DNA of 64,000 nt from a virus. The notes under the pieces were generated by a model that saw nothing but the letters and a program-made list of their open reading frames with translations, was not told where the DNA came from and did no database searches. Positions 1 to 36,186 of this stretch are shown piece after piece; the stretch's first letter is position 1, and the number at the start of each line of letters is the position of its first letter. The position numbers and the translations under genes are program-made. Where the stretch lies: positions 1 to 64,000 of IMG/VR virus record IMGVR_UViG_3300020469_003050. One strand, given 5' to 3'.

Positions 1-192
1 GCACAAGAAGAAGCTGAACGTACATTCGAAGCATTTATGTTGTGGACAAAACGTACATGTCTTGCATTTGGTTTATTTGGTGCAGTAGTTGTTGTAGGTT
101 GTAATAGTGGCGTTGAAACTGGACCTAATGCAACTGGTTCTAAATACAATGGCGAACAGTATAATCCAAGTAATATAAAGGTAGAAAAGTAA
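1..192 (+). CDS. 3' end of an ORF entering the window; possibly a 51-aa lipoprotein if it starts at ATG 37
   Basis: Frame 1 is open from base 1 to TAA 190-192. From Met at 37 it reads MLWTKRTCLAFGLFGAVVVVGC: basic N-terminus, hydrophobic core, lipobox-like VVGC. Stop overlaps the next start (TAATG). Confidence 0.4.
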   Translation, partial: AQEEAERTFEAFMLWTKRTCLAFGLFGAVVVVGCNSGVETGPNATGSKYNGEQYNPSNIKVEK

Positions 193-512
193 TGTTAAAA
201 TATGTATTTGTATTTCTACTAATATCAACATCTGCTAATGCTAAGAATTTTATTGTAGAAAAATGTTTTGCAGAATTTGAAAAGTATTCGGATGTTGCTT
301 ATTGTATAGATAGCACTAGAAATGAAAATATAAGAAAAGCAAATGTAGAACAATGGGAGTTTTTGAAGAAGAACCCTCGTTACCGTTTTCCAGGCCAAAG
401 TTTAAACAAGTGTTTTGGTCTTCCAAGAGAATCTAAAATTCATCGTGTAGAATCTACAAATGATAGAACGGTTCTGTATTATAAGAGTTCAATTAAGCCG
501 TGTATACGTTAA
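192..512 (+). CDS. small exported protein, unknown function
   Basis: ORF track 106 aa. N-terminal signal peptide MLKYVFVFLLISTSANA. Followed by a hairpin. Confidence 0.65.
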   Translation: MLKYVFVFLLISTSANAKNFIVEKCFAEFEKYSDVAYCIDSTRNENIRKANVEQWEFLKKNPRYRFPGQSLNKCFGLPRESKIHRVESTNDRTVLYYKSSIKPCIR

Positions 513-540: not shown

Positions 541-1050
541 TTAGTTTGCAAGTGGATTGTCTAACGCCCTTTGTAGACGTTTATTCAATCTAGTTTCAAG
601 TTCTTTAAGTTTTAAATCAGTACTAGTACGTAAGCTATCTGCTTTCTGTTCATAGTCTGTAAGTAACTGGTCACGTTTGTTTTCAAAACGTTGGTCAGCT
701 AAATCAATCTGTTCACGTACATTGTCTTCTACTTTGTTAACATCATCTTCTATTGAATCAACAATACGTTCTAATCTAACGATATCATCACGTAATCCGT
801 TTTTAATATCTTTAGAATAGTCTAGTGCTTCATCAAGTTTTGTGTTAACTACTTGTAGGTCTGCTTTAATTCCGCTTAGGTCAGGTGCCTGATAACTTAT
901 TATCTTGGCTTTCATATTTCTATAATCATTATAAAATTCAAAGCCTCCCCATGCGGCGCCACCTAGTGTACTCAGAATTGTTATAACTAAAAATAACTTT
1001 CCGCCAGTGAATTTAACTCCACCTACTTCTACTGTTGTTTTGTCACTCAT
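541..1050 (-). CDS. membrane-anchored coiled-coil protein, unknown function
   Basis: 169 aa. One N-terminal TM segment (LFLVITILSTLGGAAWGGF), then a long heptad-like charged helical region. Confidence 0.7.
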   Translation of the reverse strand: MSDKTTVEVGGVKFTGGKLFLVITILSTLGGAAWGGFEFYNDYRNMKAKIISYQAPDLSGIKADLQVVNTKLDEALDYSKDIKNGLRDDIVRLERIVDSIEDDVNKVEDNVREQIDLADQRFENKRDQLLTDYEQKADSLRTSTDLKLKELETRLNKRLQRALDNPLAN

Positions 1051-1059
1051 AAGTTGCTC

Positions 1060-1389
1060 CTATTTTAATTCAAACTGTATGCCAAATACGACACCAGCCC
1101 TCTCCTCATCTTCAACTGTTGGCATAACGAATAAGTTTTTATATCTTAATCTAGCCATTGGTACAACATCATAGTCGTATCCAGTAGCAATGCCAAGGTC
1201 TAATGACAGATCCTCATCAAGACTATATTTATATGCCCCAATAAGACTCCATCGGTCTAAACTATTATAATAAGTTCCTACAATAGTCTTTTCGGTTTCG
1301 CACATTGCATATGGGTGAAGATTATTGTATTTTCCTTCTAATCCCATATGTGCCGAAAGTGCCAAACCTAATACTATACAATTTAACAT
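1060..1389 (-). CDS. small beta-rich protein with hydrophobic N-terminus, unknown function
   Basis: 109 aa. Start overlaps the stop of the upstream 941-aa gene (shared base 1389). Alternating hydrophobic pattern with a C-terminal aromatic (FGIQFELK), reminiscent of small outer-membrane beta proteins. Confidence 0.6.
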   Translation of the reverse strand: MLNCIVLGLALSAHMGLEGKYNNLHPYAMCETEKTIVGTYYNSLDRWSLIGAYKYSLDEDLSLDLGIATGYDYDVVPMARLRYKNLFVMPTVEDEERAGVVFGIQFELK

Positions 1390-4214
1390 TATTCCATCCC
1401 CTCGTATTGCATATCAACCATTTTCTCATGCAATATCTCATTTGCGAGACCGTTTCTTAGGCCTCTTTGGTTTTCAGGTATCTTTTTATCTTTATAGATT
1501 TCTTCATATTGATAAAATTCTACACCTGGTATATAATACTCCCCATATGCTTTAAAACCTGGTACATAATTTATAAGTGCAGTTATTTGGGCTTGTAATG
1601 CCTGTTGTTGTTCTAATGAAACGGCTTTGCCCATAACATCTGCTAACTCTTTCAATTTGTTTTTGATGATTTCTTTCATCTTTTTTAATTTTGCTTTTCT
1701 TTTTTCTTCTTTAGTCATTTTCTTTTTTGTAGATTTATTTGAAGTAGTTTCTTCTTTATCGGAAGATTTTTCATCTTTCTTATCATCTTTCTTTTCTTCT
1801 TTCTTTTCTTTTTTATCTGACTTTTCTTCCTTTTCTTCTTCTTCTTTTTCTTCTACTTCTTCTTCTGACTCTTCCTCACTTTCTTCATTCTCAGATTCAT
1901 CAGTATTTTCCTCAGATTCATTTTCTTCGTCACTACCTTCATCCTCAGTTGATTCTTCTTCTGTATTTTCTTCTTCTGTGGATTCTTCTTCTGTACTTTC
2001 TTCTGTAGTTTCATTTTCTGTACTTTCATTTTCACTTTCTACTTCAATATCTTCTATTGACTCTGACTCACTTTCTTCTGTCTCTACTTCTACTTCCATT
2101 GTATCATCAGATGTATCTTGTGTTGGAATTTCTATATCGATTTCCATTTCTGCTTCAATTTCCATCTCTAGTTCCATCTCAATTTCTAATTCAAGTTGTT
2201 CTGTAACATCTGGAACAGGAACTTCTATTACTTCTGGTTCTACTGGTGTAATATCTGGTATTTCAACTTCTATTTCTGGTACTGTAATAATTTCTACTCC
2301 GGGTATATTACCAGGAATAGTAACTTCTGGTGCCTCAATAATATTATCAACAACTGAATCACCAGTACCTGTACCATCATCAATAATATCATCTATATCT
2401 GTTTCTACTACAGGTGCAACATAACCTGGACACATTTCATCATATTGTGGGTTTTGTTGACATTGTTGATTGAAGTATGCATCTTGATATCCTGTACATT
2501 GAAAGTTATAAAGTGGATCTAAATCACATTGCTGATTAAAATATGCATCAGCATATCCTGTACAACTTTCATCATACAATGGATTTTGCTCACATTGATA
2601 TGTTAAGAAAGCCGCCGCATATCCAGTACATGAACTATCATATAATGGATTAGATTCACATTGAAGTGTTAAATATGCCGCATCATAACCTGTACATTCT
2701 GAATCATATAAAGGATTGGCAGTACATGCCTGATTGAATATATATGTTGCATATGCTTCTGCATAACCTGTACACATTTGATTGAATAGTGTATTTGAAT
2801 CGCATTGTGTTGTCATGTATGAAGTTTTAAAAAATCTATAAGTCTTACCATTGTCTGGTTGAACAGTATTTCCACTTGCATTTTTTGTATATAAGAACAT
2901 ATGAGTTCCAGTTCCACTACCTTGAACCGAAACACTACTGATAGTTCCATAATCATCAGTACAATTCGTACCTGTACATTCCCATTTCCAGCCACCTGCG
3001 TTTATTTCTGCTTGGTTATAATATAATATCCAATAAAGTGTTGGGTCATTTGCTTTAGTTACTTCAACAAAGTCACTGCCTGCTCCTGCAACGTTTGTAC
3101 CATTGCTTGTTAATTCTGTAATTGCACTACTATAACCTGTACATGAACTATCGTAATGTGCATCTAAGCCACATTGTTGTGCTAAGTAGGCCGCGGCATA
3201 ACCCGTACACCCACTATCATAAAGAGGATTAGCAGTACATTGTTGAGTATAGATTGCTTCTGCATATCCCGGACAAGCCGCATCGTGTGTTGCATCTAAA
3301 CTACATTGTTGATTAAAATAAGCAGTAGCATAACCAGGACAACCTGAATCGTATAAAGCATCAGCGGCACAATTTTGGTCATATTGTTGGGCCGCATATG
3401 CAGTAGCATATCCTGGACAACTTGGATCATATAGTGCAGTATCATTACAAGGATTTGCTCTATAAGTAAACCAAGTTTTTATATCTTTTACGATAGGTCC
3501 GTAGTACCCGTCCCAATTACCTTTATCGTAACCATTAATTCTAAAACGAACATCACCTACTGAATTTGGTGTACGTATTGTTCCTACTTTATCTATGTGA
3601 TTGTAAATTTCTATATTGTCTTCGTGTATCTGCCAGACAGTTGTACCTTCTGCGACTTCATTAGTACTGTGGCTATTACTTGAATTCCATTGATACCATG
3701 TATCCATTGTCCAAGTTTTTGTTTCAACTACATTACCACTAGAATCTGTGACTTCTACAACTACAACTAATTCGTCCCAATATGTATCATCGGTGACTTC
3801 ACCTGTTGTAGTGTTTGCTCTATTGCTGATATTGGCACTACAAAAGTTACCAGGTGTATTGAAACAGTGAATATACTTCCATTGATAGTGAACTTTATCT
3901 ATGCTTACGCCTGTGCCTTGTAGTGCTTGATTGATTGCATAAGAAATAGCAAATGTATTTTGGCACTCTCCCCACCTTATAGTACTTCCAGATCCATAAA
4001 CATATGCGGCAGAAGTGCCTGCAGGACAATTACCAAATGGTTGGCCTATTGTACCATCATCTAAATCTAAGGTATTTGGACTAGTAGTTGTTGGGTTAGT
4101 TGGTGCAGTGGTATCTGATGCGAATACTGTGCTACAGAACGAAAGCCAGAACAGCAAGAATACCGCCGATAGTAAGCCCTTCGACCATTCCTTCTTTAGC
4201 AAGTTTTTTCTCAT
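1389..4214 (-). CDS. large exported protein: signal peptide, globular N-domain, two blocks of 22-aa Cys-pair repeats, P/E/I/V-rich spacer, poly-acidic then poly-Lys tract, C-terminal domain
   Basis: 941-aa ORF. N-terminus MRKNLLKKEWSKGLLSAVFLLFWLSFCSTVFA-SD is a signal peptide. About 11 repeats of C-x3-[ND]-P-L-Y-D-x2-C-[TP]-G-Y-x2-A-Y-x3-Q. Confidence 0.85.
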   Translation of the reverse strand: MRKNLLKKEWSKGLLSAVFLLFWLSFCSTVFASDTTAPTNPTTTSPNTLDLDDGTIGQPFGNCPAGTSAAYVYGSGSTIRWGECQNTFAISYAINQALQGTGVSIDKVHYQWKYIHCFNTPGNFCSANISNRANTTTGEVTDDTYWDELVVVVEVTDSSGNVVETKTWTMDTWYQWNSSNSHSTNEVAEGTTVWQIHEDNIEIYNHIDKVGTIRTPNSVGDVRFRINGYDKGNWDGYYGPIVKDIKTWFTYRANPCNDTALYDPSCPGYATAYAAQQYDQNCAADALYDSGCPGYATAYFNQQCSLDATHDAACPGYAEAIYTQQCTANPLYDSGCTGYAAAYLAQQCGLDAHYDSSCTGYSSAITELTSNGTNVAGAGSDFVEVTKANDPTLYWILYYNQAEINAGGWKWECTGTNCTDDYGTISSVSVQGSGTGTHMFLYTKNASGNTVQPDNGKTYRFFKTSYMTTQCDSNTLFNQMCTGYAEAYATYIFNQACTANPLYDSECTGYDAAYLTLQCESNPLYDSSCTGYAAAFLTYQCEQNPLYDESCTGYADAYFNQQCDLDPLYNFQCTGYQDAYFNQQCQQNPQYDEMCPGYVAPVVETDIDDIIDDGTGTGDSVVDNIIEAPEVTIPGNIPGVEIITVPEIEVEIPDITPVEPEVIEVPVPDVTEQLELEIEMELEMEIEAEMEIDIEIPTQDTSDDTMEVEVETEESESESIEDIEVESENESTENETTEESTEEESTEEENTEEESTEDEGSDEENESEENTDESENEESEEESEEEVEEKEEEEKEEKSDKKEKKEEKKDDKKDEKSSDKEETTSNKSTKKKMTKEEKRKAKLKKMKEIIKNKLKELADVMGKAVSLEQQQALQAQITALINYVPGFKAYGEYYIPGVEFYQYEEIYKDKKIPENQRGLRNGLANEILHEKMVDMQYEGME
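1710..2414 (-). repeat. low-complexity coding tract (P/E/I/V-rich, then E/S/T/D-rich, then K/E-rich) inside the 941-aa gene
   Basis: Translation reads EIEVEIPDITPVEPEVIEVP..., ESESESIEDIEVESENESTENETTEESTEEESTEE..., EEKEEEEKEEKSDKKEKKEEKKDDKKDEK. Confidence 0.8.
2421..2804 (-). repeat. Cys-pair repeat block 2 (about 6 units of about 22 aa) in the 941-aa gene
   Basis: QCDSNTLFNQMCTGYAEAY / ACTANPLYDSECTGYDAAY / QCESNPLYDSSCTGYAAAF / QCEQNPLYDESCTGYADAY / QCDLDPLYNFQCTGYQDAY / QCQQNPQYDEMCPGY. Confidence 0.85.
3129..3449 (-). repeat. Cys-pair repeat block 1 (about 5 units) in the 941-aa gene
   Basis: PCNDTALYDPSCPGYATAY / NCAADALYDSGCPGYATAY / QCSLDATHDAACPGYAEAI / QCTANPLYDSGCTGYAAAY / QCGLDAHYDSSCTGYSSA. 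Confidence 0.85.
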
Positions 4215-4722
4215 TATCTACATCAACCTTTTTAGGCATCTTTTGTGGATTCTTTTTCCACAATTCGTATGCTTCTTCGCCAATTTTACCATTGTACGGA
4301 CAGGGTGTCCCTGCCATAGCCATAGCATCAAAAACTCTTCGGTCTTGACACATTACTGATACCGCCGCAACCTTCATGCCCATATCGTATAGTGTTTTGG
4401 AAAGTTTAAGTCTTTCACAATTGGCATCCCTGTAGGTTTGACCTGTAGATACTCCTAAAATCTGCGTTTGTACTGCGCCACTAACACCAACAGTACATAA
4501 ATCAGAATTACTTCCACTAATAGAAGGCGATATAGCACTAGGTGGTGGGCTTTTTACAGTTGTATCAGTATCCGTATCAGACTTGACTGTACTATTACTA
4601 GTAGAATCTGTAACGATAGGATCTGCCGCAATCGCAGATGTAGTTAACATGATTCCCAAAAGTAACGCAATGAAAAAGGTCAAAGCGGTAGAGTGGGAAA
4701 GATATTTCCTTTTTAGGCTCAT
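4132..4722 (-). CDS. exported protein with C-terminal TM anchor, unknown function
   Basis: ORF track gives 4132..4752. I prefer Met-11 (ATG at 4722) because GAGGAG lies 6 nt upstream. It has a signal-like ALTFFIALLLGIMLTTSAIA-AD, a Cys-containing middle and a C-terminal TM (LTIGGILAVLAFVL). The last 83 nt overlap the start of the 941-aa gene. Confidence 0.65.
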   Translation of the reverse strand: MSLKRKYLSHSTALTFFIALLLGIMLTTSAIAADPIVTDSTSNSTVKSDTDTDTTVKSPPPSAISPSISGSNSDLCTVGVSGAVQTQILGVSTGQTYRDANCERLKLSKTLYDMGMKVAAVSVMCQDRRVFDAMAMAGTPCPYNGKIGEEAYELWKKNPQKMPKKVDVDNEKKLAKEGMVEGLTIGGILAVLAFVL

Positions 4723-4863
4723 AAGTGTCTCCTCTAAGCCTGACTGCATCATAGAATTTCTTCAAACCTTACAGTCAGTAACAAAACCATATATATAATT
4801 TTAAAAATAATTATACTCAATGTTAATATTTATCTAAATGGTTCAAAAATTTGACAATAGGTA

Positions 4864-12772: not shown

Positions 12773-13180
12773 ATGAAGTTTGAGCAAATTATAGAAGGCG
12801 TAGGACATAACGATTTGAAAGGTCTAGTATCAAATAGAATTTCAATAGCTGAGTTCGAACCTAAAACAGGAAACGAAGAAGATGTTATTGTTGTAGCATT
12901 CTATGTAAAAGATGATAAACCTGCTCAAGACCTAGCAACATTTATGGAAAAAGGTGTTGTTGATATTTTAGATACCGAAGTATCTCCGAATGCAGACGAT
13001 GATGGTCACTACTTAGTATTTGTTGAAATGAAGAATGAAAACATAATGAAAACTACTTTAGAACTATTAGATGATGTTGCTCGTATTTGCAGTTGTGATG
13101 ATTGGTCACTAGAATTTTATGGTGGCAAAACAGTATCAATAAAAGCAGATGAAATTGAAGGGTATCTAAAAAAGAATTAA
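12773..13180 (+). CDS. hypothetical acidic protein
   Basis: 135-aa ORF. N-terminus is MKFEQIIEG. Confidence 0.65.
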   Translation: MKFEQIIEGVGHNDLKGLVSNRISIAEFEPKTGNEEDVIVVAFYVKDDKPAQDLATFMEKGVVDILDTEVSPNADDDGHYLVFVEMKNENIMKTTLELLDDVARICSCDDWSLEFYGGKTVSIKADEIEGYLKKN

Positions 13181-13395
13181 TGGCCAGAGAACCCGCTATG
13201 GAATTTGAAGGTGATGTAGTAGATATCACTCCCGGATGTTTCAAGGTCAAATTAGATAACGGTCATATAATTGATGGTATGTTATCTGGAAAAATGAGAA
13301 AGAATAACATTAAGGTTATTCTGCATGATAGAGTTAAAATTGAAGTGACTCCTTATGATATAACAAAGGGTCGCATAACTTTTAGGTACAAATAA
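13180..13395 (+). CDS. infA: translation initiation factor IF-1 homolog
   Basis: 71 aa, full-length and collinear with bacterial IF-1. Examples: EFEGDVVDITPGCFKVKLDNGH, SGKMRKNNIKVILHDRVKIEVTPYDITKGRITFRYK (compare E. coli [34 protein letters not shown]). Confidence 0.9.
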   Translation: MAREPAMEFEGDVVDITPGCFKVKLDNGHIIDGMLSGKMRKNNIKVILHDRVKIEVTPYDITKGRITFRYK

Positions 13396-13396
13396 T

Positions 13397-13873
13397 ATGT
13401 TTTTTTATAGAATCAAAAAATATCTAATAATCGCAGGTATTCTAGCCGCGGTTGGATTTGGATTATTTAAGTATTATGAATATACACAGAATCAAATAAG
13501 AATATATGCCGAAAATGCCGCTAGAGCAGAAATGGCTCAACAAGAGACACAAGCCGCTTTAGAGAAAACAATGAAAGACCTAGAGTTAGTACAAGAAAAA
13601 TTTACTAAGGTTACTGAGCAATTTGCGGCGGCTAATGGTCGTGTAAAAGGCTTAGAAAATAAACTAAAAGAACATGATTTACCTTACTTGGCTGAACAAA
13701 AACCAGGATTAATCGATAAAATAGTTGACAAAGGTACTAAAGATATGTTAAGATGTTTAGAAATAGTAAGTGGTTCACCACTAACCGAGGAAGAAATAAA
13801 TGTTACTAAGAAAAGTAAAGCAAATACCACATGTCCTGATATTGCTAACCCTAACTACGTTCCTATTAACTAG
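13397..13873 (+). CDS. i-spanin candidate (N-terminal TM plus coiled coil)
   Basis: 158 aa. TM is YLIIAGILAAVGFGLF, then a helical charged region. Its 3' end is overlapped out of frame by a lipoprotein ORF. Confidence 0.5.
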   Translation: MFFYRIKKYLIIAGILAAVGFGLFKYYEYTQNQIRIYAENAARAEMAQQETQAALEKTMKDLELVQEKFTKVTEQFAAANGRVKGLENKLKEHDLPYLAEQKPGLIDKIVDKGTKDMLRCLEIVSGSPLTEEEINVTKKSKANTTCPDIANPNYVPIN

Positions 13874-14258
13874 TTGCGGGTCAGTTCCAAAATCAGTAAC
13901 ATATACGCCCAAACCAGTTGAGCGGCCTGAGTTAATTTTGCCTGAAACAAAAACATTGAATATGCGTAACGTTGACTTTATTGTAATGACAAGAGAAAAC
14001 GTTGAAGAAGAATTCGCTAAGTTAGAAAAAGACGGTAAAGCCATTGTTATTTTTGGGTTAGATGCAGAAGACTATGAAAAGTTATCATTCAACATAGCAG
14101 ACATTTTAGAATTATTAGACCAACAACAATCAGTCATAGTTGCGTATAGAGAATATTACGAAGAAGCAGATAAGACCCTTGAAGAAATCAATTCACAAAG
14201 CGAAGTAGAAATTGAAGTCGATAAGGAAGATGGCTTTCTTTCTAATTTTCTCAAATGA
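13800..14258 (+). CDS. o-spanin candidate (lipoprotein), overlapped architecture
   Basis: 152 aa. Signal plus lipobox: MLLRKVKQIPHVLILLTLTTFLLTS-C. The mature N-terminus is Pro-rich (PKSVTYTPKPVERPELILPE). RBS GAGGAAG. The start lies inside the upstream gene. It is longer than typical o-spanins. Confidence 0.5.
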   Translation: MLLRKVKQIPHVLILLTLTTFLLTSCGSVPKSVTYTPKPVERPELILPETKTLNMRNVDFIVMTRENVEEEFAKLEKDGKAIVIFGLDAEDYEKLSFNIADILELLDQQQSVIVAYREYYEEADKTLEEINSQSEVEIEVDKEDGFLSNFLK

Positions 14259-14641
14259 CAGACAATCCATACTCAGTTTTAAAAATCGATAAATATTCTA
14301 CAACAGATGATATCAGACAGTCTTACAAAAGGCTTATGAAGAAGCATCATCCTGACACTGGTGACGGTGACAGAGAAACATTTGATAAGGTACGACTTGC
14401 TTATATACAGTTAAAAGATAAAAAACCCGATAATGGTGTTGTAAGGACACTCAGCATAACAGTCCCTATAACAAAGCAAGACTTATCTTTAATCTTAGGC
14501 ACTAGACAAACATTCATGTGTCAGGATGTTCCTTTCGATGTAATGGTTCCTTATGAGACTAGAATTAATGATACTATTGTTGTTAAAAAAATACTAGGTG
14601 ACTTGTCACTTAAAATAAAATTCAAGGAAGACAATGAGTAA
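14255..14641 (+). CDS. J-domain (DnaJ-like) co-chaperone
   Basis: 128 aa. Canonical J-domain: NPYSVLKIDKYSTTDDIRQSYKRLMKKHHPDTGDGDRETFDKVRLAYIQL, with intact HPD. Confidence 0.8.
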   Translation: MTDNPYSVLKIDKYSTTDDIRQSYKRLMKKHHPDTGDGDRETFDKVRLAYIQLKDKKPDNGVVRTLSITVPITKQDLSLILGTRQTFMCQDVPFDVMVPYETRINDTIVVKKILGDLSLKIKFKEDNE

Positions 14642-16850
14642 AGCAGATAGAGTAAATGTTTCGATTGAACGTGCCGTACAACATGCAAATTCTTTAGCAC
14701 ATGAATATGTGACACTAGAACATCTTTTATATTCAATTATAGAAGAACAAGATGTTAGCGACATGCTTACGAAAATGAAATGTGACGTTAGATTTATTTT
14801 AGAAGAACTAGAAAAGTATCTAAATGAACGTGATGATATTACAAAAGGTGAAGATAATAGTGTACCTAGAAAAACTCTATCATTAGACCGTGTTTTCAAT
14901 CGTGCAGTAACACAGGTAATCTTTAGTGGTCGTTCTAAACTTCAAGTAAGAGATATATTTGTTTCTCTATTGAGTGAAAATGGTTCTACTGCTTATTACA
15001 TTCTAAAACAATCAGGTGTAACAAGAGATAAAGCAATCGATATTCTAAGAAAAGAATATTACGGTACGCAACAAGGTAGAGACATGGCAGGTCCTCCGGG
15101 TCAAGGAGCACCAGTAAGATTTGAAGACTATTGTTTAGATTTAAATCAACAAGCATTAGACGGAGTAATTGATCCAGTTATTGGACGGGAAGATGAGTTA
15201 ATTGAATTAACAGAGGTACTAGCAAGACGTAAAAAGAATAATGCTATTATTGTAGGTGAACCTGGAGTAGGTAAAACTGCAATAGCAGAAGGTCTTGCAT
15301 TGATGATTGGCGAAGGTCATGTACCAGAGATATTAAAAGACAAAACAGTTTATTCACTAGATGTTACATCGCTTGTAGCAGGTACAAAGTATCGTGGTGA
15401 ATTTGAAGAAAGAGCGAAAGCAGTATTTGACCAACTATCAAGTAAAGATAATGTAATATTATTCATTGATGAAATTCATATGATTATGGGTGCAGGTTCG
15501 GCAGGTGGGTCTAACATAGATATTGCAAACTTATTAAAACCACTGTTAGCAAGTGGTAAATTACATTGTATTGGTGCAACAACAAGTGAAGAATACAGAG
15601 AAAACTTTGAAAAAGATAGAGCATTACAAAGACGTTTTCAAAAACTAGTTATTGAACAACCAAACAAAGAAAATACAAAATTAATTTTGAAAGGCTTGAA
15701 ACAATATTACGAAGCATATCACGAAGTTGAATACACAAACGAGTCTATAGACTTAGCAGTTGAATTAGCAGAAAGATATATGCATGGTAAGTTCAATCCT
15801 GATAGAGCGATTGATGTCCTTGATGTAGCAGGTGCAAGAGCAAAGTTACACAAGCACAAGGGCAAAATTAATAAGGCAGAAATAGAACAAGCTATTTCAA
15901 AAATTACAAGAATTCCTTTAGAAATGATAGATGCAAAACAAAATGCAAACTATGAAAAACTAGAAGAAAATATTAAGACAAAACTATTTGGACAAGACAA
16001 AGCAGTTGGTTCATTAGTTGAATCTATACTCGTATCTAAATCAGGTATGAGAGCAAGAAATAAACCTATTGGTTCATTCTTGTTTGTAGGTCCAACAGGA
16101 ACAGGTAAAACTGAATTGTGTAGACAGTTAGCAGAAAATCTTGATGTTAAACTTAGAAAGTACGATATGTCAGAATACATGGAACAACATTCTGTATCTA
16201 AACTTATCGGTGCCCCTCCAGGGTACGTAGGACACGCCGACGGCGGGGCTGGTGCTGGACAACTAATCAGTGATGTAGATGAAACACCTAATTGTGTTGT
16301 TCTATTAGACGAAGTTGAGAAAGCCCACCCAAGTGTAATGAACCTCTTATTACAAGTTATGGACGATGGTCGTTTGACTAGTTCAACTGGTAAAACAGCA
16401 GACTTTAGCAATGTTATTCTTATAATGACTAGTAACTTAGGAGCGGCACAACAATCTAAGAGTGCTATAGGGTTCACGAATTCAAATGAAGGTGCTTCAT
16501 ACGAAGCAGTTAAGAAATTCTTTACACCAGAGTTTAGAAATAGACTTGACGCAATGGTTGAATTTGTTTCATTAGAACGTGAACATATAGACATGATTGT
16601 TACCAAAACAATCAAAGAAATTAATGAAATGTTATCAGATAAAAATGTAACTATTAAATTATCAGCAAAAGCAAAAACATGGCTGAGAAATAAAGGATAT
16701 CAACCTGATATGGGAGCGAGACCTTTACAACGTGTAGTCAACGATTACATTAAAAAGCCGTTATCAAAAGAAATATTATTTGGTAAACTTGTTGATGGTG
16801 GACTGGTAACTATCAAAATTGTAGATGATAGGATTGAGTTTGTATACTGA
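14634..16850 (+). CDS. clpA: ClpA-type double-ring AAA+ unfoldase
   Basis: 738 aa. Clp N-domain (HEYVTLEHLLYSII). D1 Walker A GEPGVGKTAIAEGLA and ILFIDEIH. D2 Walker A GPTGTGKTELCRQLA and VLLDEVEKAH. No ClpB middle domain. A ClpP-docking-type tripeptide is present (SAIGFTNS). Confidence 0.9.
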   Translation: MSKADRVNVSIERAVQHANSLAHEYVTLEHLLYSIIEEQDVSDMLTKMKCDVRFILEELEKYLNERDDITKGEDNSVPRKTLSLDRVFNRAVTQVIFSGRSKLQVRDIFVSLLSENGSTAYYILKQSGVTRDKAIDILRKEYYGTQQGRDMAGPPGQGAPVRFEDYCLDLNQQALDGVIDPVIGREDELIELTEVLARRKKNNAIIVGEPGVGKTAIAEGLALMIGEGHVPEILKDKTVYSLDVTSLVAGTKYRGEFEERAKAVFDQLSSKDNVILFIDEIHMIMGAGSAGGSNIDIANLLKPLLASGKLHCIGATTSEEYRENFEKDRALQRRFQKLVIEQPNKENTKLILKGLKQYYEAYHEVEYTNESIDLAVELAERYMHGKFNPDRAIDVLDVAGARAKLHKHKGKINKAEIEQAISKITRIPLEMIDAKQNANYEKLEENIKTKLFGQDKAVGSLVESILVSKSGMRARNKPIGSFLFVGPTGTGKTELCRQLAENLDVKLRKYDMSEYMEQHSVSKLIGAPPGYVGHADGGAGAGQLISDVDETPNCVVLLDEVEKAHPSVMNLLLQVMDDGRLTSSTGKTADFSNVILIMTSNLGAAQQSKSAIGFTNSNEGASYEAVKKFFTPEFRNRLDAMVEFVSLEREHIDMIVTKTIKEINEMLSDKNVTIKLSAKAKTWLRNKGYQPDMGARPLQRVVNDYIKKPLSKEILFGKLVDGGLVTIKIVDDRIEFVY

Positions 16851-32208: not shown

Positions 32209-32748
32209 ATGTCTGGAATAAAACGAATATATGGTCTTGAAGAAAAGAACTACTACAAGTTCTTTGGTATTGATGAAAAGCAAGGGATAAGTGTACGTAG
32301 TCTTACGACACATTATAAGAAGATTCTAACAATCCTTAAGAAGGATACATCATTTACAGGACAAGACAGATTAGCATTTGCCAACAGGGCTTTCGAAACC
32401 TTGGCAGATCCTATTGCCCGTGCAAGATATTTACTTGAATTAAAAGGTCATGAAAATGATTTCAGAGACGGTGTTAGACCTGATGATATGGTTTTCATTA
32501 ATCAACTAAAACATCAACTTGAGGAACAAACTACAAGCGAAGATGTTATCTCTTTTATTGAAGAATTAAAAGACCAAACTCAGTTTATTAAAGACCAAAT
32601 AGAACAAAGCATTGATACATATCAGAATTACAAAACTGCTAGTGGATTATTGAATAGATTTTACGAAATATCAGAAATTCACCAAGAAGCAAAATCGAAA
32701 CAAGAAAAGATTGAGGAGGGGATAACCTATGTTGTATTTAACAGATAA
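32209..32748 (+). CDS. hscB: HscB-like Fe-S co-chaperone with degenerate HPD motif
   Basis: 179 aa, collinear with HscB: NYYKFFGI..., ETLADPIARARYLLELKG (compare QTLRHPLMRAEYLLSLHG), then a helical C-domain. The HPD position reads KKD. Confidence 0.65.
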   Translation: MSGIKRIYGLEEKNYYKFFGIDEKQGISVRSLTTHYKKILTILKKDTSFTGQDRLAFANRAFETLADPIARARYLLELKGHENDFRDGVRPDDMVFINQLKHQLEEQTTSEDVISFIEELKDQTQFIKDQIEQSIDTYQNYKTASGLLNRFYEISEIHQEAKSKQEKIEEGITYVVFNR

Positions 32749-33058
32749 TTCCACAACAAGAATTAAAAAATGGTTATCTCAGAACCCAGGTAAAAAAGCA
32801 AGATTAAGTATAAAAACAGCCGGGTGTACTGGTTTCATGTATGAAGTTCTACTTGACGAAAAATTCAATATAGAAGATGACTTTGCTATTAAATACGATG
32901 ACTTTGACATTCTCGTAGAACATAAATATTTTCACACTATTGACGGAGCAACATTGGATTATGTTACTGATACTAAGAGTATGAGTTCGCATTTTGAACT
33001 TGTAAGTAATCCAAATGAAAAAGCACGTTGTGGATGTGGAGAGAGTTTTACGGTATGA
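32729..33058 (+). CDS. iscA: IscA/HesB-family Fe-S carrier
   Basis: 109 aa. The three conserved Cys are present: GCTGFMY and C-terminal CGCGESFTV. Confidence 0.85.
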   Translation: MLYLTDNSTTRIKKWLSQNPGKKARLSIKTAGCTGFMYEVLLDEKFNIEDDFAIKYDDFDILVEHKYFHTIDGATLDYVTDTKSMSSHFELVSNPNEKARCGCGESFTV

Positions 33059-33777
33059 ATGAGAGATTAAACATAGAAAAACACGCAATAAATCAAGCAC
33101 GTAGATGCCAAAGGAACTGGGACCTTTCTAAAGAAGTAGATGAAGAACACATAAATCATTGGATTTATCTAGCAACTACGGCACCATCAAAACAAGATGA
33201 AAGTTTTTTTGATTTATATGTAGTTACTGATAGAACAAAATTAGATTATCTCTACAAGGAACATTCATGGGGATTTACAATGTTGCCTGGTATGAAAGAT
33301 TGGGTCGGAAGAAACCCACAAATGGGAGCAAACTGTTTGTTTGTTTTCAATAGAAAGATGAATGAAGAAGAAATTCGTAATAACGAAAAAGATGGAAGTG
33401 TAAGAGATCCAAATGCTTCAAGTAGATGGGACAATGCATTTACATCGATTGGTATAGCAAGTGGCATAGTAGCCTTTAGTGCAAGTATGATGGGTTATGT
33501 TACTGGTTATGGTAAGAATTTTGGTTACATTGAAGAACCAAAACACAGTCAAGATGTATGGGGTGAAGTTCTCGGCATTAAGAAAGAAGATAACAACTTG
33601 ACATATAGTTTGGGAATTGGTTACCCAGATGAAAGCCTTCAATGGTATCAAAGTAAAGATAATAACGAATATCTAACAGGAGGGCCTGTTAACTATTCAA
33701 TCCAGTCTACTGATACTGATTTAAAATATTCAACATATTCTAAATTAGCCAGAGACATAAAGGTGTGGCGAGTATGA
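33055..33777 (+). CDS. nitroreductase-family flavoprotein (tentative)
   Basis: ORF track gives 33028..33777. ATG 33055 forms an ATGA overlap. The N-terminal RRCQRNWDLSKEVDEEHINHWIYLATTAPSKQDESFFDLYVVTD fits the nitroreductase signature (R.S.R.f......l..i...a..APS..n.q......v). Confidence 0.55.
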   Translation: MNERLNIEKHAINQARRCQRNWDLSKEVDEEHINHWIYLATTAPSKQDESFFDLYVVTDRTKLDYLYKEHSWGFTMLPGMKDWVGRNPQMGANCLFVFNRKMNEEEIRNNEKDGSVRDPNASSRWDNAFTSIGIASGIVAFSASMMGYVTGYGKNFGYIEEPKHSQDVWGEVLGIKKEDNNLTYSLGIGYPDESLQWYQSKDNNEYLTGGPVNYSIQSTDTDLKYSTYSKLARDIKVWRV

Positions 33778-34097
33778 TTTTTACAGAAAAAGCGGCTACG
33801 AGAGTAGAAGAAATTATAAAAGAACAGGGTGAATCTTCTGGTACGGCATTAAGAGTGTTCGTAGAAGGAGGAGGTTGCCATGGGTTCAGTTACGGTTTTG
33901 GTTTTGAAAAAGACCTTAAAGATGATGATAGTATCTATGAAACTAATGGCGTGAAGTTAGTAGTAGATAGTATGTCAATCATGTATCTAGCAGATGCAAA
34001 AGTAGATTATATCTCTAGCCTACAAGGCGACAGATTTGTAATCGATAACCCAGGAGCACAAACTACATGTGGATGTGGTTCTAGCTTCTCAGTATAA
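33774..34097 (+). CDS. IscA/ErpA-type A-type Fe-S carrier
   Basis: MIFTEKAATRVEEII..., LRVFVEGGGCHGFSYGF, C-terminal CGCGSSFSV. ATG 33774 forms an ATGA overlap (track start 33765 is GTG). Confidence 0.9.
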   Translation: MIFTEKAATRVEEIIKEQGESSGTALRVFVEGGGCHGFSYGFGFEKDLKDDDSIYETNGVKLVVDSMSIMYLADAKVDYISSLQGDRFVIDNPGAQTTCGCGSSFSV

Positions 34098-34123
34098 TCA
34101 ACCAGAGGACGAAAGAAAAAATA

Positions 34124-34363
34124 ATGGAAGTAAAAGATAAAGTGTATGAAATAACTGCACGAAAAATGAAACGGCAGGTCTCTGACTTGAATGATGATAC
34201 CAATCTAAAGAAAGATTTGGGTGCTGATAGTATCGATACAGTTGAAATTGTATTTGAAGTAGAAGAATTCTATAAAATTGCTATTCCAGATGAATACGCA
34301 GAAACTATCAATACTATTGGTGATGCAGTCAAGTGTGTAGAGGATATGCTAAAAAATCAATAG
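34124..34363 (+). CDS. acyl carrier protein
   Basis: 79 aa. Phosphopantetheine-attachment motif LGADSIDTVEIVFEVEEFY (compare AcpP LGADSLDTVELVMALEEEF). Confidence 0.85.
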   Translation: MEVKDKVYEITARKMKRQVSDLNDDTNLKKDLGADSIDTVEIVFEVEEFYKIAIPDEYAETINTIGDAVKCVEDMLKNQ

Positions 34364-34372
34364 GATGATATT

Positions 34373-34825
34373 ATGTCGAAAACTCTAAGGTGGTGGTTGT
34401 TCTTTTGTATATCACTAACAATCATGGGAATATCTCATTATTTCGGATTGTTTTATGAATTATATGAAAAGGACGTAACTAAGATTAGCTTTGGTATCAT
34501 AGGCTTGTATATATTTACAAGTTTGTATATCGGTAAGTTAACGATGGATTATAAAGAAGGTGAAAACATCGATTCCGGATTAGGTGTCGGTTGGTTCATA
34601 TCAGAAAGTATGTTGGCGTTAGGTATGATAGGTACCGTAGCAGGATTTATTCTGATGTTAGGTTCAAGTTTTGAAGGATTAGATGTAGATGATACTGCAA
34701 GTCTAAAAGAAACTCTAACAGATATGGCTATGGGTATGAGTACTGCATTGTATACGACACTTACGGGTCTTATATTCAGTCAGTTTACTAAGATACAGTT
34801 AGTCAACCTTGAGAGTCGTGACTGA
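34373..34825 (+). CDS. MotA/TolQ/ExbB-family proton-channel protein (minimal, 150 aa)
   Basis: Three TM segments. Family signatures: LGMIGTVAGFILM and MSTALYTTLTGLIFSQF. Confidence 0.7.
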   Translation: MSKTLRWWLFFCISLTIMGISHYFGLFYELYEKDVTKISFGIIGLYIFTSLYIGKLTMDYKEGENIDSGLGVGWFISESMLALGMIGTVAGFILMLGSSFEGLDVDDTASLKETLTDMAMGMSTALYTTLTGLIFSQFTKIQLVNLESRD

Positions 34826-35460
34826 TGAACAAAAACAAATACAAAAGCACAGTAGGATTTACAGACTTACTATTCAATCTATTAGTAGGTTTCGTATTTT
34901 TATTCATAATCGCTTTTATATTAATCAATCCAATAACTAAAAAAGCAGATGTACCTAAAAAAGCAGAGTACATGATTGTAATTGAATGGCCTACAGTAGT
35001 AACGGATGATATTGACTTATGGGTTAAAGATCCTGCAGGCAATACAGTTTCTTTTATAAAGAAAGAAAATGGTTTTATGAATCTTGAAAAAGATGATTTG
35101 GGACATTCAAATGATACGACTGTAGATGAATACGGTAATAGAAAAGTAATTTATATCAATAGAGAAGTAATCACATTACGTGGTATTATAAAAGGAAGAT
35201 ATCAAGTAGCCGCTCACGTATATGCAATGAGACCTTGGGAAGTAAAAAAGAATATTGAAAAGAAAGATTTGATAATTAAAGTAAAAGTTATTAAAATAAA
35301 TCCTTATAGAGAAGTATACATTGGTGAGAAAAACTACGAATTTAAAGGTCAACAAATACCATTAGTTAACTTTTGGCTAGACAAAGATGGGAAATTTGTT
35401 AAATACAATACGTTAGATAATAATATCATAACGAGAAAGGCAAGTAGCGGCGGACTTTAA
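34825..35460 (+). CDS. single-TM protein in the ExbD/TolR position, with a beta-rich periplasmic domain
   Basis: 211 aa. The N-terminal GFTDLLFNLLVGFVFLFIIAFIL resembles the ExbD/TolR TM. The ectodomain contains DIDLWVKDPAGNTVSF. ATGA-type coupling (TGATG) to the channel gene. Confidence 0.45.
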   Translation: MNKNKYKSTVGFTDLLFNLLVGFVFLFIIAFILINPITKKADVPKKAEYMIVIEWPTVVTDDIDLWVKDPAGNTVSFIKKENGFMNLEKDDLGHSNDTTVDEYGNRKVIYINREVITLRGIIKGRYQVAAHVYAMRPWEVKKNIEKKDLIIKVKVIKINPYREVYIGEKNYEFKGQQIPLVNFWLDKDGKFVKYNTLDNNIITRKASSGGL

Positions 35461-35484: not shown

Positions 35485-36186
35485 ATGTTATATTCAGTAG
35501 AGTTAGCACCATTATTCATTTCGATGTTCTTTTTGGCATGTGTTATTCTTTGGTTTGCAATAAAAAATCACAGAAACGCATTACTACTAGGACTGGTTAT
35601 ACCTTTAACACTGGCAACTGTAGTTATTAGCTACATGTCGGTAGATAGAATACTAGGTTATCCTATCAATGCAAATATAAAGCCAGACTCAGTTTATCTT
35701 TCTCACTTAGAATCACCTGACAGTAAAAGTATATATGTATGGATAGTTGAACCAGGAAGTGACAAACCACGTGCAGTAACTATACCAAATACCAAAAATA
35801 ATAAAAAACAAATGCAAGATGCTAAAAATAAAACAGAAGAAGGCATCAAGCAACAAATGGCACCAGTATCTGAAATTTTAAATGAAGCTGAAATGAAAGG
35901 TAGAGGTATGACAAAAGGTGGTGAGTTTGCTACATATGATTTTAGAATAGGTGGTGGAAGTTTAAAAGGTATTAATCCTAGATTAGGTCTCCCTCCAGAA
36001 GAAGATCCTGATGAAGAACAAAAACAAAACCCTCCTCCAAATGTAAGTGCATTAGATTTTGAAACTGATGAATCAGTTGCAATGGCCCAGCCAGTAGTTC
36101 CTTATTCAGACTTACCAGAAATGCCTGTCGATACAGATGATGCGACAAATATTGACCACTCAGTAGATGAACATACTGATTTTTAG
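35485..36186 (+). CDS. two-TM membrane protein with acidic C-terminal tail
   Basis: 233 aa. TMs near residues 8-27 and 34-53. The C-terminus is Pro/Asp/Glu-rich. Confidence 0.6.
   Translation: MLYSVELAPLFISMFFLACVILWFAIKNHRNALLLGLVIPLTLATVVISYMSVDRILGYPINANIKPDSVYLSHLESPDSKSIYVWIVEPGSDKPRAVTIPNTKNNKKQMQDAKNKTEEGIKQQMAPVSEILNEAEMKGRGMTKGGEFATYDFRIGGGSLKGINPRLGLPPEEDPDEEQKQNPPPNVSALDFETDESVAMAQPVVPYSDLPEMPVDTDDATNIDHSVDEHTDF

What the first reader, a model, noticed from the sequence alone, without database searches (positions are those of the whole stretch)
1389..4214. Exported 941-aa protein with 11 novel Cys-pair repeats and an extreme acidic-then-basic tail
After a clear signal peptide and a 250-aa Trp-rich domain come two blocks (5 and 6 units) of a 22-residue repeat: C-x3-[ND]-P-L-Y-D-x2-C-[TP]-G-Y-x2-A-Y-x3-Q. 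This gives two Cys per unit, probably disulfide-stapled. The blocks are separated by a 110-aa domain. Next come a P/E/I/V tract, about 130 residues of almost pure E/S/T/D, a poly-K/E tract and a 95-aa C-terminal domain. I cannot assign the repeat to a named family. An exported, disulfide-rich, highly charged protein encoded by a phage could be a virion decoration or adhesin, or a host-envelope-directed factor.
Basis: seen in the sequence. Interest (0 to 1): 0.65.

Follow-up and report, generated by a model that had tools for sequence, protein, structure and literature searches.

The report
Exported stalk protein, phage envelope module
A giant marine phage encodes a secreted 941-residue protein (a sugar-binding-like head, a rod of eleven disulfide-closed repeat units, a very charged flexible tail and a conserved end domain). 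It is the variable middle gene of an undescribed three-gene cell-envelope module found in hundreds of ocean phages, including SAR11 phages, and its function, probably tied to host lysis, is untested.

Summary
ORF 1389-4214(-) encodes 941 aa: a Sec-type signal peptide, a Trp-rich beta domain, 5+6 copies of a 22-aa unit (C-x9-C-x-G-Y-x2-A-Y-x2-Q-Q), a 101-aa insert, a 182-residue stretch with net charge -79 and no Lys/Arg, a K/E tract and a conserved C-terminal domain. Pfam, NCBIfam, PHROGs and PDB sequences hold no match to the repeat or the protein. It is not an orphan: at least 2,640 metagenomic relatives exist, the C-terminal domain defines 632 clusters at 50% identity, and it occurs on 493 IMG/VR viral contigs. 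Only 8 MAG contigs among 185,579 species genomes carry it. AlphaFold2 gives a lectin-like jelly-roll head and helix-plus-loop repeat units, with a disordered tail. The gene always lies between two other unannotated envelope genes. A is a signal-peptide protein with a C-terminal hydrophobic tail that overlaps B's start. C has one transmembrane helix, a coiled coil and a terminal NPL motif. A-B-C is present in jumbo phages, pelagimyophage Mosig and podoviruses such as HTVC115P and HTVC023P. It often lies next to endolysin or holin genes, or in the T7 lysis-gene slot. Best reading: an exported, length-variable envelope tether in a three-protein complex, probably lysis-linked. The virion-decoration idea is not supported. 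Function remains untested.

The parts
4116..4214 (-). Gene B, aa 1-33: Sec-type signal peptide (basic n-region, hydrophobic core, VFA|S site)
   Evidence: Read from the sequence. The same layout with A-x-A-like sites occurs in homologues. AF2 gives helix 5-25.
3450..4115 (-). Gene B, aa 34-255: T/P-rich linker, then a Trp-rich beta jelly-roll 'head' (lectin/CBM-like fold)
   Evidence: AF2 pLDDT is 80-93 and the domain is all-beta. Foldseek hits are the Fbs1/Fbs2 sugar-binding domain, CBM BT0996-C, legume lectin and a viral jelly roll, with E 1e-4 to 1e-5 and TMt up to 0.54. BFVD hits are F5/8 type C, CBM-cenC, ConA-like and tail proteins.
3108..3449 (-). Gene B, aa 256-369: repeat block 1, five units of C-x9-C-x-G-Y-x2-A-Y-x2-Q-Q
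   Evidence: In the AF2 model each unit is a 12-16-aa helix plus a 10-aa loop bounded by the two Cys, pLDDT about 85.
2805..3107 (-). Gene B, aa 370-470: inserted beta-rich domain with 2 Cys, present in only part of the family
   Evidence: AF2 pLDDT is about 80. Many homologues lack it and have one continuous repeat array. A profile built from the insert finds it in 7 of 98 loci.
2397..2804 (-). Gene B, aa 471-606: repeat block 2, six units
   Evidence: TRF finds period-66 arrays at 2420-2717.
2127..2396 (-). Gene B, aa 607-696: Pro/Glu/Ile/Val tract ending in an alternating hydrophobic/acidic stretch (ELEIEMELEMEIEAEMEIDIEI), net charge -29
   Evidence: It is disordered in AF2 except helix 671-689. 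HTVC115P gp53 has a similar alternating stretch.
1851..2126 (-). Gene B, aa 697-788: acidic E/D/S/T tract, net charge -50, no Lys/Arg
   Evidence: AF2 pLDDT is below 35.
1710..1850 (-). Gene B, aa 789-835: mixed Lys/Glu tract (18 K, 18 D/E)
1392..1709 (-). Gene B, aa 836-941: conserved C-terminal helical domain (KMKEII...ALINYVPGF...PENQRGLRNGLA.EILH.KMVDMQY); defines the superfamily
   Evidence: Alignment A2. The profile finds 632 clusters at 50% identity with E<=1e-3. The domain reaches the C-terminus in nearly all of the 150 listed. It is on 493 IMG/VR contigs. AF2 gives helices 835-863, 867-881 and 916-936, pLDDT 50-68.
4132..4752 (-). Gene A (206 or 196 aa): signal peptide, S/T-rich stretch, conserved 4-Cys core (SPPPSAISPS...DLC...NCERLK...GMKVAAV..C.D...GTPCP) and a C-terminal hydrophobic tail
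   Evidence: Hit to phrog_20531, function unknown. At least 8,000 relatives, none named. Found upstream of B in every locus whose flank is present. Homologues occur in pelagiphages, roseophages and Ralstonia RSP15. The AF2 model has low confidence.
4132..4214 (-). 83-nt overlap of A and B. The same bases (about 4135-4179) encode A's C-terminal hydrophobic tail in one frame and the hydrophobic core of B's signal peptide in another
   Evidence: Read from the sequence. A overlaps or abuts the first-start-codon ORF of B in all loci that hold A; the overlap is 55-157 nt in all but one.
1060..1389 (-). 109-aa beta-rich protein whose ATG overlaps B's stop codon (ATGA); weak PagP-like hit; an accessory gene of the jumbo-phage version of the module
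   Evidence: Hit to phrog_3600, E 1e-13. 66% identical in L001. Lies directly after B, with 0 nt gap, in 17 loci.
541..1050 (-). Gene C (169 aa): short N-terminus, one TM helix, PDLSGI motif, coiled coil, C-terminal ...ALDNPLAN
   Evidence: coiled-coil-type weak hits only. A profile built from C finds it in 93 loci, on B's strand and downstream of B in all but two B-bearing loci, whose flanks run out. Alignment A7 gives invariant D57 and N-P-L. HTVC115P gp49 is 40% identical.

Best explanation
Gene B is the large, fast-evolving exported subunit of a conserved three-gene phage envelope module, A-B-C.

After Sec export and signal-peptide cleavage, B is a modular tether with four parts:
- a lectin-like jelly-roll head that probably binds an envelope glycan (inferred from fold only);
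- a rod of helix-plus-loop units, each loop closed by a disulfide formed in the oxidising periplasm. Copy number varies across the family (0-22 matches to the unit pattern; at least one degenerate unit in every full-length member inspected) and so sets the rod's length;
- a long flexible acidic-then-basic spacer;
- a conserved helical C-terminal domain that most likely docks onto the co-translated membrane-anchored partners A and/or C (inferred from strict synteny, overlapping genes and matching B-tail/C types).

The complex acts on the host envelope late in infection and is most likely connected with lysis, for example outer-membrane or wall engagement, or lysis timing.

Shown: the architecture, family size, phage restriction, synteny and neighbourhoods.
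Inferred: export, disulfides, glycan binding, the B-A/C contact and the lysis link.
For: Architecture and export signal.

AF2 model: confident head and repeat units, disordered spacer.

Lectin/CBM-like fold matches. Depositors annotate the B-position proteins of HTVC033P and uvMED S28C10 as 'carbohydrate binding domain'.

One Cys-loop unit is present even in minimal 290-aa members, and arrays reach 22 units.

Synteny:
- C is found in every B-bearing locus whose downstream flank is held (two lack it).
- A is found in all loci with an upstream flank.
- All three are on the same strand. A overlaps B's start. In the commonest arrangement C overlaps B's stop by about 12 nt or starts 6 nt after it; elsewhere other genes intervene.

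B-tail type and C subtype change together. Profile-matching tail: window, L001, L002, HTVC115P. Non-matching tail with a short C: Mosig, HTVC023P..

Restriction to phages: 493 IMG/VR contigs against 8 MAG contigs in 185,579 species genomes.

Lysis neighbourhood:
- HTVC023P: A-B-gp47-C-peptidase M15.
- CRP-810 and CRP-207: A-x-lysozyme.
- MW202481: A, a B-like protein annotated 'TonB', x, a holin-like protein, lysozyme.
- HTVC033P: lysozyme three genes upstream.
- GTA_holin_3TM and class-3 lipase occur among downstream neighbours.
- In HTVC202P, Baldr and T7-like S28C10 the module lies after the tail fibre or just before TerL. That is the position of T7 genes 17.5/18.5/18.7 (T7 gene order from general knowledge).
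Against: No experiment or expression data exist.

The window already has a canonical overlapping Rz/Rz1-like spanin pair at 13397-13873 and 13800-14258 (phrog_739/812). The module therefore cannot simply be this phage's spanin.

Among 93 downstream and 84 upstream neighbours in metagenomic loci, few match lysis families. Tail-fibre families dominate upstream in small podoviruses.

No endolysin is adjacent in the window.

C's membrane topology is ambiguous: 2.0 against 2.2 Lys/Arg on the two flanks. Its coiled coil could therefore be cytoplasmic and unable to bind B.

The head's fold matches are weak (TMt <= 0.54) and jelly rolls are generic.

The spacer is not always acidic. L011 has an S/T/A/P/Q-rich one.
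Confidence: 0.4

Rival explanations
1. Receptor masking or superinfection exclusion. The exported complex places a glycan-binding head on or under the host surface. It blocks adsorption or DNA entry of competing phages, or prevents progeny being lost on debris, as lipoprotein Llp does for T5.
For: The head domain is variable and lectin-like, and it is swapped between lineages: at least three N-terminal domain types share one tail. Tail-fibre genes lie directly upstream in podovirus-size contigs. From general knowledge, receptor-blocking genes such as T5 llp and cor lie next to receptor-binding genes. The window has separate spanins, so the module is free for another role.
Against: Exclusion genes are usually small, sporadic and early. 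This module is about 2.5-4 kb and sits in late, structural or lysis regions. No route across the outer membrane is evident for a folded, disulfide-bonded protein.
Confidence: 0.2
2. A factor that works outside the cell after lysis. Periplasmic B is released at lysis, binds polysaccharide, debris or neighbouring cells, and so changes aggregation or encounter rates. This resembles what has been proposed for pelagiphage curli modules.
For: The head is lectin-like and the polyanionic tail is long. There is precedent for envelope or secretion modules exchanged between pelagiphage families with proposed aggregation roles (PMC9599517).
Against: Strict coupling to two membrane-anchored partners is not needed for a released factor. 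The conserved C-terminal docking-type domain argues for a cell-bound complex.
Confidence: 0.1
3. Virion decoration, fibre or adhesin.
For: Foldseek lists tail and fibre proteins with similar jelly rolls. Neighbours in small podoviruses are tail-fibre and virion structural genes. A rod of repeats resembles a fibre shaft.
Against: The Sec signal peptide is conserved and cleavable. Tailed-phage virions assemble in the cytoplasm (general knowledge). There is no hit in INPHARED by tblastn and none to structural PHROGs. In the window and in Mosig the module lies away from structural genes, next to replication genes and tRNAs.
Confidence: 0.08
4. TonB/TolA-like energised link. B (spacer and docking domain) works with C and a phage MotA/ExbB-ExbD-like pair to couple the inner membrane to an outer-membrane target.
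For: The acidic-then-basic, partly Pro-rich spacer recalls TonB's (Glu-Pro)n/(Lys-Pro)n rod (general knowledge). A freshwater B-position protein was annotated 'TonB' by its depositor. The window encodes a MotA/TolQ/ExbB-family protein at 34373-34825, followed by a single-TM protein.
Against: No TonB_C or TolA domain was detected. B has a cleavable signal, not an N-terminal anchor. The ExbB-like gene is 30 kb away. The listed small-podovirus neighbours gave no such hit.
Confidence: 0.05

Closest known systems
Two-component spanins (lambda Rz/Rz1 type)
   Same: Phage-encoded envelope proteins that lie with lysis genes. C resembles an i-spanin in outline (one N-terminal TM helix plus a coiled coil). 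Periplasmic disulfides matter in both. In three genomes the module occupies the T7 18.5/18.7 position just before TerL.
   Different: There is no lipoprotein partner: B has an SPase I site and lipobox ORFs lie near C in only 3 of 93 loci. There is no match to Rz PHROGs. The window has a genuine Rz/Rz1 pair elsewhere. B is 290-1,160 aa with a lectin-like head. A third subunit, A, is present.
TonB / TolA periplasm-spanning proteins
   Same: A long low-complexity spacer, acidic then basic and partly Pro-rich, joins a terminal binding domain to an inner-membrane anchor. One homologue was annotated TonB by its depositor.
   Different: No TonB_C or TolA domain was found. Orientation is reversed: the conserved docking end is C-terminal and the anchor would be supplied in trans by A or C. 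B has a cleavable signal peptide instead of an N-terminal TM helix.
Mu gp25 releasin (DUF2730)
   Same: A small phage protein with an N-terminal TM helix and a coiled coil, found near endolysin genes (PMC9239132). The C-like protein of uvMED S28C10 carries a DUF2730 label in its record.
   Different: The window's C gave no PF10805 hit at E<=1. A profile of the C family against Mu gp25 scored 3 bits, and hhalign probability was 0.8%. C has its own invariant PD..SGI and terminal NPL motifs.
Disulfide-bridged helical repeat proteins such as Helicobacter cysteine-rich proteins (Sel1-like repeats); recalled from memory, not tested
   Same: Tandem short alpha-helical repeats, each stapled by one disulfide, in exported proteins.
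   Different: Those units are about 36 aa and form helix pairs. Here a 22-aa unit has one helix and a C-x9-C loop. There is no sequence match in Pfam or PDB.
Pelagiphage type VIII secretion (curli) module
   Same: A multi-gene envelope module absent from the host, shared between podo- and myo-pelagiphages by cross-family transfer, and abundant in the ocean (PMC9599517).
   Different: The proteins are different. No CsgG, CsgF or curlin hit appears among the families listed for the window or for B. The A-B-C module is not mentioned in the passages retrieved from that paper.

Membership tests
Any described repeat or domain family (Pfam-A, NCBIfam, PHROGs, PDB sequences) | Significant profile or sequence match of the 22-aa Cys unit or of the whole protein | tested here: not met
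   Pfam gave 0 families at E<=1 and PHROGs gave 0. NCBIfam gave only low-complexity ClfA/ClfB noise far below cut-off. phmmer of repeat block 1 against PDB gave 0 hits at E<=10. Ten other B-type proteins also lack Pfam hits.
Carbohydrate-binding jelly-roll modules (CBM / F-box sugar-binding domain / lectin) | Fold match with high TM-score and conserved sugar-binding residues | tested here: inconclusive
   Foldseek probability is about 1.0 but E is only 1e-4 to 1e-5, TMt 0.36-0.54 and identity 10-12%. Binding residues were not examined. Depositors' 'carbohydrate binding' labels on pelagiphage B proteins are unverified.
Two-component spanin | o-spanin: small outer-membrane lipoprotein (lipobox Cys) encoded within, overlapping or next to the i-spanin gene | tested here: not met
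   B has VFA|S and no lipobox. A lipobox search near C found candidates in 3 of 93 loci. The regex missed at least L002's lipoprotein, so the count is a lower bound.
Two-component spanin | i-spanin: N-in type II membrane protein with periplasmic coiled coil; match to Rz families | tested here: inconclusive
   C has a TM helix plus a coiled coil. There is no Rz PHROG or Pfam hit. Topology from K/R flanks is ambiguous. The window's true Rz/Rz1 pair does hit phrog_739/812.
TonB | N-terminal TM anchor, Pro-rich (EP)n/(KP)n rod and a TonB_C domain | tested here: not met
   B has a cleavable signal rather than an anchor, and no TonB_C hit. Only the acidic-then-basic spacer is reminiscent.
DUF2730 / Mu releasin | PF10805 match over the whole length; gene within about 5 genes of the endolysin | tested here: not met
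   No PF10805 hit for window C. hhalign of A7 against Mu gp25 gave probability 0.8%. Endolysin proximity holds in HTVC023P, but no endolysin lies near the module in the window.
Curlin (CsgA/B) repeat | Curlin_rpt profile match; CsgG/CsgF in the genome | tested here: not met
   No Pfam hit for B. No Csg family appears among the 25 of 26 window families listed. One BFVD hit labelled 'Curlin associated' covers 145 columns at E 5e-7.
Virion structural protein | Detection in purified virions; match to structural families | not testable with these tools
   No proteomics is available. There is no structural PHROG hit and no tblastn hit in 50,697 phage records.
A-B-C module (defined here) | B with signal peptide, at least one C-x8/9-C-x-G-Y unit, a low-complexity spacer and a VDMQY-type C-terminal domain; A immediately upstream; C downstream on the same strand | tested here: met
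   The window has A at 4132-4752, B at 1389-4214 and C at 541-1050.

The most novel reading that the evidence does not exclude
A-B-C is a previously unrecognised, very widespread three-component envelope machine of aquatic phages. It is found in SAR11, roseobacter and jumbo-phage lineages. A disulfide-stapled stalk protein of adjustable length links a surface or wall glycan to inner-membrane partners. The machine carries out a step of lysis (outer-membrane or wall disruption, or lysis timing) or of exclusion by a mechanism unlike spanins, holins, releasins or disruptins.
Probability: 0.4. Interest if true: 0.8.

Novelty: categorically new. Interest (0 to 1): 0.6.

Why it matters
Phages of SAR11 and other streamlined marine bacteria are among the most abundant biological entities. 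Their lysis and envelope biology is almost unknown. I did not find spanins or holins described for pelagiphages in the papers searched.

This finding picks out a three-gene, exported or membrane-anchored module that:
- is present in every B-bearing locus whose flanks are held;
- has been exchanged between podoviruses, T4-like myoviruses and jumbo phages;
- carries gene A, whose relatives saturated an 8,000-candidate search;
- has no annotation at all.

If it acts in lysis or exclusion, it would define a new class of phage envelope machinery. It would also give a testable handle on how the ocean's dominant phages leave or guard their hosts.

The 22-residue disulfide-closed helix-loop unit is a new modular stalk element with naturally variable copy number. 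That makes it of interest for protein design and for annotating viral 'dark matter'.

Tried and rejected
1. Profile libraries (Pfam, NCBIfam, PHROGs) and PDB sequence search on B gave nothing.
2. tblastn of B against 50,697 phage records gave no match.
3. A homologue search with the C-terminal 113 aa returned only short fragments and split gene calls. It was useful only for building profile A2.
4. HMMs of B's head and insert against pelagiphage B-like proteins showed no significant homology. Only the C-terminal domain matches HTVC115P gp53, at 15.8 bits. The head is therefore not shared with pelagiphage B proteins at sequence level.
5. The structure of gene A had low confidence (pLDDT 55), and its Foldseek search was empty.
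6. I considered the module as this phage's spanin and rejected that as the sole reading. A canonical Rz/Rz1 pair exists at 13397-14258 and o-spanin-like lipoproteins are rare near C.
7. C as a DUF2730 releasin was not supported.
8. A curli/T8SS link was not supported. No Csg genes were seen in the window, and PMC9599517 describes a different module.
9. The promoter and terminator scan around the module was no better than shuffles. A TATAAATA lies 180 nt upstream of Mosig gene A, but two matches in that locus are within chance: 24 of 200 shuffles reach two.
10. The +strand 265-aa ORF 1627-2424 inside the acidic tract was rejected as a mirror artefact of the low-complexity region (S/F-rich translation).
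11. The Mar_Mega_1 megaphage paper was unrelated.

Full report

Yes. The minus-strand ORF 1389..4214 encodes 941 aa.

- Residues 1-33 are MRKNLLKKEWSK, then a 20-residue hydrophobic core, then VFA|S. This is a textbook Sec/SPase I signal. Homologues keep the same layout and A-x-A-like sites.
- Residues 34-255 hold 9 Trp.
- Eleven units start at C256, 282, 304, 326, 348 and at C471, 497, 519, 541, 563, 585. The period is 22, and the first spacing in each block is 26.
- C1, C11, G13 and Y14 are invariant. Mean pairwise unit identity is 48%.
- The pattern occurs 11 times, against at most 2 in 20,000 shuffles of the segment.
- TRF sees period-66 DNA arrays.
- Over 1,712 units from relatives the consensus is C-x-[AL]-[ND]-[PA]-L-Y-D-x-x-C-x-G-Y-x-x-A-Y-x-x-Q-Q. 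A spacing of 22 occurs in 1,161 of the successive pairs.
- The tail is as described. aa 607-696 is P/E/I/V-rich (net -29). aa 697-788 is E/D/S/T (net -50). aa 789-835 is K/E. aa 836-941 is the conserved end domain.
- No Lys or Arg occurs in the two repeat blocks or in aa 607-788.

**2. What is it made of?**

AlphaFold2, with a 78-sequence alignment, gives these features:

- A confident all-beta head (aa 40-255, pLDDT 80-93).
- Repeat units that are each one 12-16-residue helix followed by a 10-residue loop (pLDDT about 85).
- A beta-rich insert (aa 370-463).
- Disorder from 603 to 833, apart from a helix over the alternating ELEIEMELEMEIE stretch.
- A helical C-terminal domain of modest confidence.

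The two Cys of a unit flank the loop. Blocks begin and end with complete C-x9-C pairs. Minimal relatives carry exactly one C-x8-C-P-G-Y unit. The simplest pairing is therefore an intra-unit, loop-closing disulfide.

Foldseek places the head among sugar-binding jelly rolls: the Fbs1/Fbs2 sugar-binding domain, a Bacteroides CBM and legume lectins. It also lists viral jelly rolls. Scores are weak: E 1e-4 to 1e-5 and TMt <= 0.54. In BFVD the best matches are uncharacterised proteins of uncultured phages. F5/8-type-C, CBM and ConA-like tail proteins follow.

Pfam, NCBIfam, PHROGs and PDB sequences do not match the repeat or the protein.

**3. How widespread is it?**

- The first 620 residues find at least 2,640 proteins (90% clusters). 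All come from metagenomes, and none carries a name or a Pfam domain.
- The best 120 share the architecture but have 6-18 units, with or without the insert.
- A profile of the C-terminal domain finds 632 clusters at 50% identity in 1.84 billion representatives. The domain reaches the C-terminus in nearly all of the 150 listed.
- Those proteins have different N-terminal domains. Most full-length ones have a signal peptide. All but one have 1-14 Cys units.
- IMG/VR holds 493 contigs with the domain, from 4 kb fragments to 244 kb.
- The 185,579-species genome set holds 8 loci, all on MAG contigs.
- The family is therefore essentially phage-borne.

The window itself is a phage. It encodes DNA polymerase, a clamp loader 55% identical to that of Pseudomonas jumbo phage PA5oct, a tail fibre and six tRNAs. 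Its contig is about 343 kb, judged from the longest contig listed for the window's own proteins.

**4. The context is the main result.**

Across the B-bearing loci, B sits in a fixed three-gene arrangement on one strand.

*Gene A* (window 4132-4752)
- It has a signal peptide, a conserved S/T-rich stretch, a 4-Cys core and a short C-terminal hydrophobic tail.
- It overlaps or abuts B's first-start-codon ORF; the overlap is 55-157 nt in all but one locus.
- In the window the same bases encode A's hydrophobic tail and the core of B's signal peptide in two frames.
- A has at least 8,000 unannotated relatives.

*Gene C* (window 541-1050)
- It has one TM helix, an invariant PD..SGI motif, a coiled coil of variable length and a terminal N-P-L.
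- In the commonest arrangement it overlaps B's stop by about 12 nt or starts 6 nt after it.
- In jumbo-phage versions other genes intervene. These include a 108-116-aa PagP-like beta protein that starts on B's stop codon (17 loci; window 1060-1389).

*Cultured and complete phages with A followed by a B-position protein*
- HTVC115P gp54-gp53-...-gp49.
- Mosig 202-201-200.
- HTVC023P gp45-gp46-gp47-gp48.
- HTVC202P, HTVC033P, Baldr and T7-like uvMED S28C10.
- Roseophages CRP-810 and CRP-207 and a freshwater podovirus. In these three no C was identified.

B's C-terminal domain is shared with HTVC115P gp53, weakly at 15.8 bits over its full length. Mosig and HTVC023P B proteins, whose C-terminal regions the profile does not match, go with a shorter C subtype. 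This pattern is consistent with a B-C contact.

**5. What does it do?**

Direct evidence is lacking. The positional evidence points to the lysis region.

- Endolysin genes lie within about 2 kb of A in 6 of the 12 phages holding A (13 records; RSP15 is listed twice). These are HTVC023P, HTVC033P, CRP-810, CRP-207, MW202481 (with a holin-like gene) and MW202675.
- In three others the module lies just before TerL or after the tail fibre. That is where T7 keeps its holin and spanin genes.
- GTA-type holin and class-3 lipase hits occur among downstream neighbours in metagenomic loci.

The evidence against a simple spanin role is as follows.

- The window has a canonical overlapping Rz/Rz1 pair elsewhere.
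- Lipoprotein partners are rare near C.
- Most metagenomic neighbours are tail-fibre or unknown genes.

C is not demonstrably a DUF2730 releasin, although one depositor labelled a C-like protein that way. C's topology is ambiguous.

I therefore commit to this reading, with confidence 0.4. B is an exported, length-variable tether whose conserved C-terminal domain docks on the membrane-anchored partners. Its head engages an envelope glycan. It acts in a late envelope step that is probably linked to lysis.

The rivals are:
- receptor masking or superinfection exclusion (0.2);
- a factor released at lysis (0.1);
- a virion component (0.08);
- a TonB-like energised link (0.05).

**6. Comparison and novelty.**

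The module resembles spanins, TonB/TolA and the Mu releasin in outline only. Each membership test that I could run failed or was inconclusive. The literature I could search describes a different cross-family pelagiphage envelope module (curli T8SS; PMC9599517), and the passages I retrieved do not mention this one.

I rate the family and module as categorically new, in the sense of undescribed and unrelated to known families. The mechanism is unproven.

I score interest at 0.6. The family is abundant, ecologically central and testable in existing pelagiphage and roseophage cultures. The functional inference, however, is circumstantial.

Noticed in passing
window 13397-13873 (+) and 13800-14258 (+): A canonical overlapping spanin pair. 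The first is a 158-aa protein with an N-terminal TM helix (phrog_739, Rz-like, E 2e-9). The second is a 152-aa lipoprotein with lipobox LLTSC (phrog_812, E 1e-9). The two genes overlap by 74 nt.
   Followed up: yes
window 34373-34825, 34825-35460, 35485-36186 (+): A MotA/TolQ/ExbB-family protein (PF01618, 30.6 bits, above the cut-off) is followed by a 211-aa single-TM protein with an Asp in its TM helix (ExbD/TolR-like by eye). A 233-aa membrane protein comes next. This could be a phage-encoded stator-like pair. Any link to the A-B-C module is unknown.
   Followed up: partly
window 4132-4214 (-): Dual coding. The 83-nt A/B overlap encodes A's C-terminal hydrophobic tail and B's signal-peptide core in two frames. 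An overlap or abutment is conserved in all loci that hold A (55-157 nt in all but one).
   Followed up: partly
window 1627-2424 (+), and P0121: The acidic tract produces a 265-aa S/F-rich mirror ORF on the opposite strand. The source's gene caller seems to have split gene B, because a 109-aa C-terminal product is on record for the window's contig. Low-complexity tracts of this kind may cause systematic mis-annotation of the family.
   Followed up: partly
window 37-192 (+) and 192-512 (+): Two small exported proteins lie convergent to the module. One is a 51-aa candidate lipoprotein (…VVVGC) and the other a 106-aa signal-peptide protein with 4 Cys. Neither has a family hit.
   Followed up: partly
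window 32729-34363, 47198-47578, 37239-37703, 13180-13395, 14255-16850, 45638-47125, 52415-56065: The window is rich in auxiliary genes. These are two IscA/HesB-like Fe-S proteins, NifU/IscU, an acyl carrier protein, a plastocyanin-like protein, an IF-1-like protein, DnaJ plus a Lon-like protease, a sodium:solute symporter and a 1,216-aa fusion (HD phosphohydrolase / CCA-adding enzyme / 5'-3' deoxyribonucleotidase). PhoH and radical-SAM enzymes are also present. Some coordinates were assigned by eye from alignment-wide scans.
   Followed up: partly
L013 10585-11292 and L015 10542-11249 (Rhodobacteraceae-bin contigs): Two 235-236-aa genes lie directly downstream of C. Class-3 lipase hits occurred in 2 downstream neighbours. 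I assigned them to these two genes by eye, from a GHSLG motif in L013. The finding recalls esterase-type lysis accessories such as LysB.
   Followed up: no
L088 10839-11482 and equivalents (L050, L055 …): In the commonest podovirus-size contigs, C is followed by two proteins. One is a 69-aa coiled-coil protein with a C-terminal hydrophobic tail. The other is a roughly 146-aa two/three-TM protein that weakly resembles GTA_holin_3TM (E 0.006 in L055). These are candidate holin genes.
   Followed up: partly
L006 1061-1120 (Mosig, upstream of gene A): A T4-type late-promoter-like TATAAATA, followed by a repeated TGTCAAATAATT motif, lies in the intergenic region before gene A. Two such matches in the locus are within chance.
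   Followed up: no
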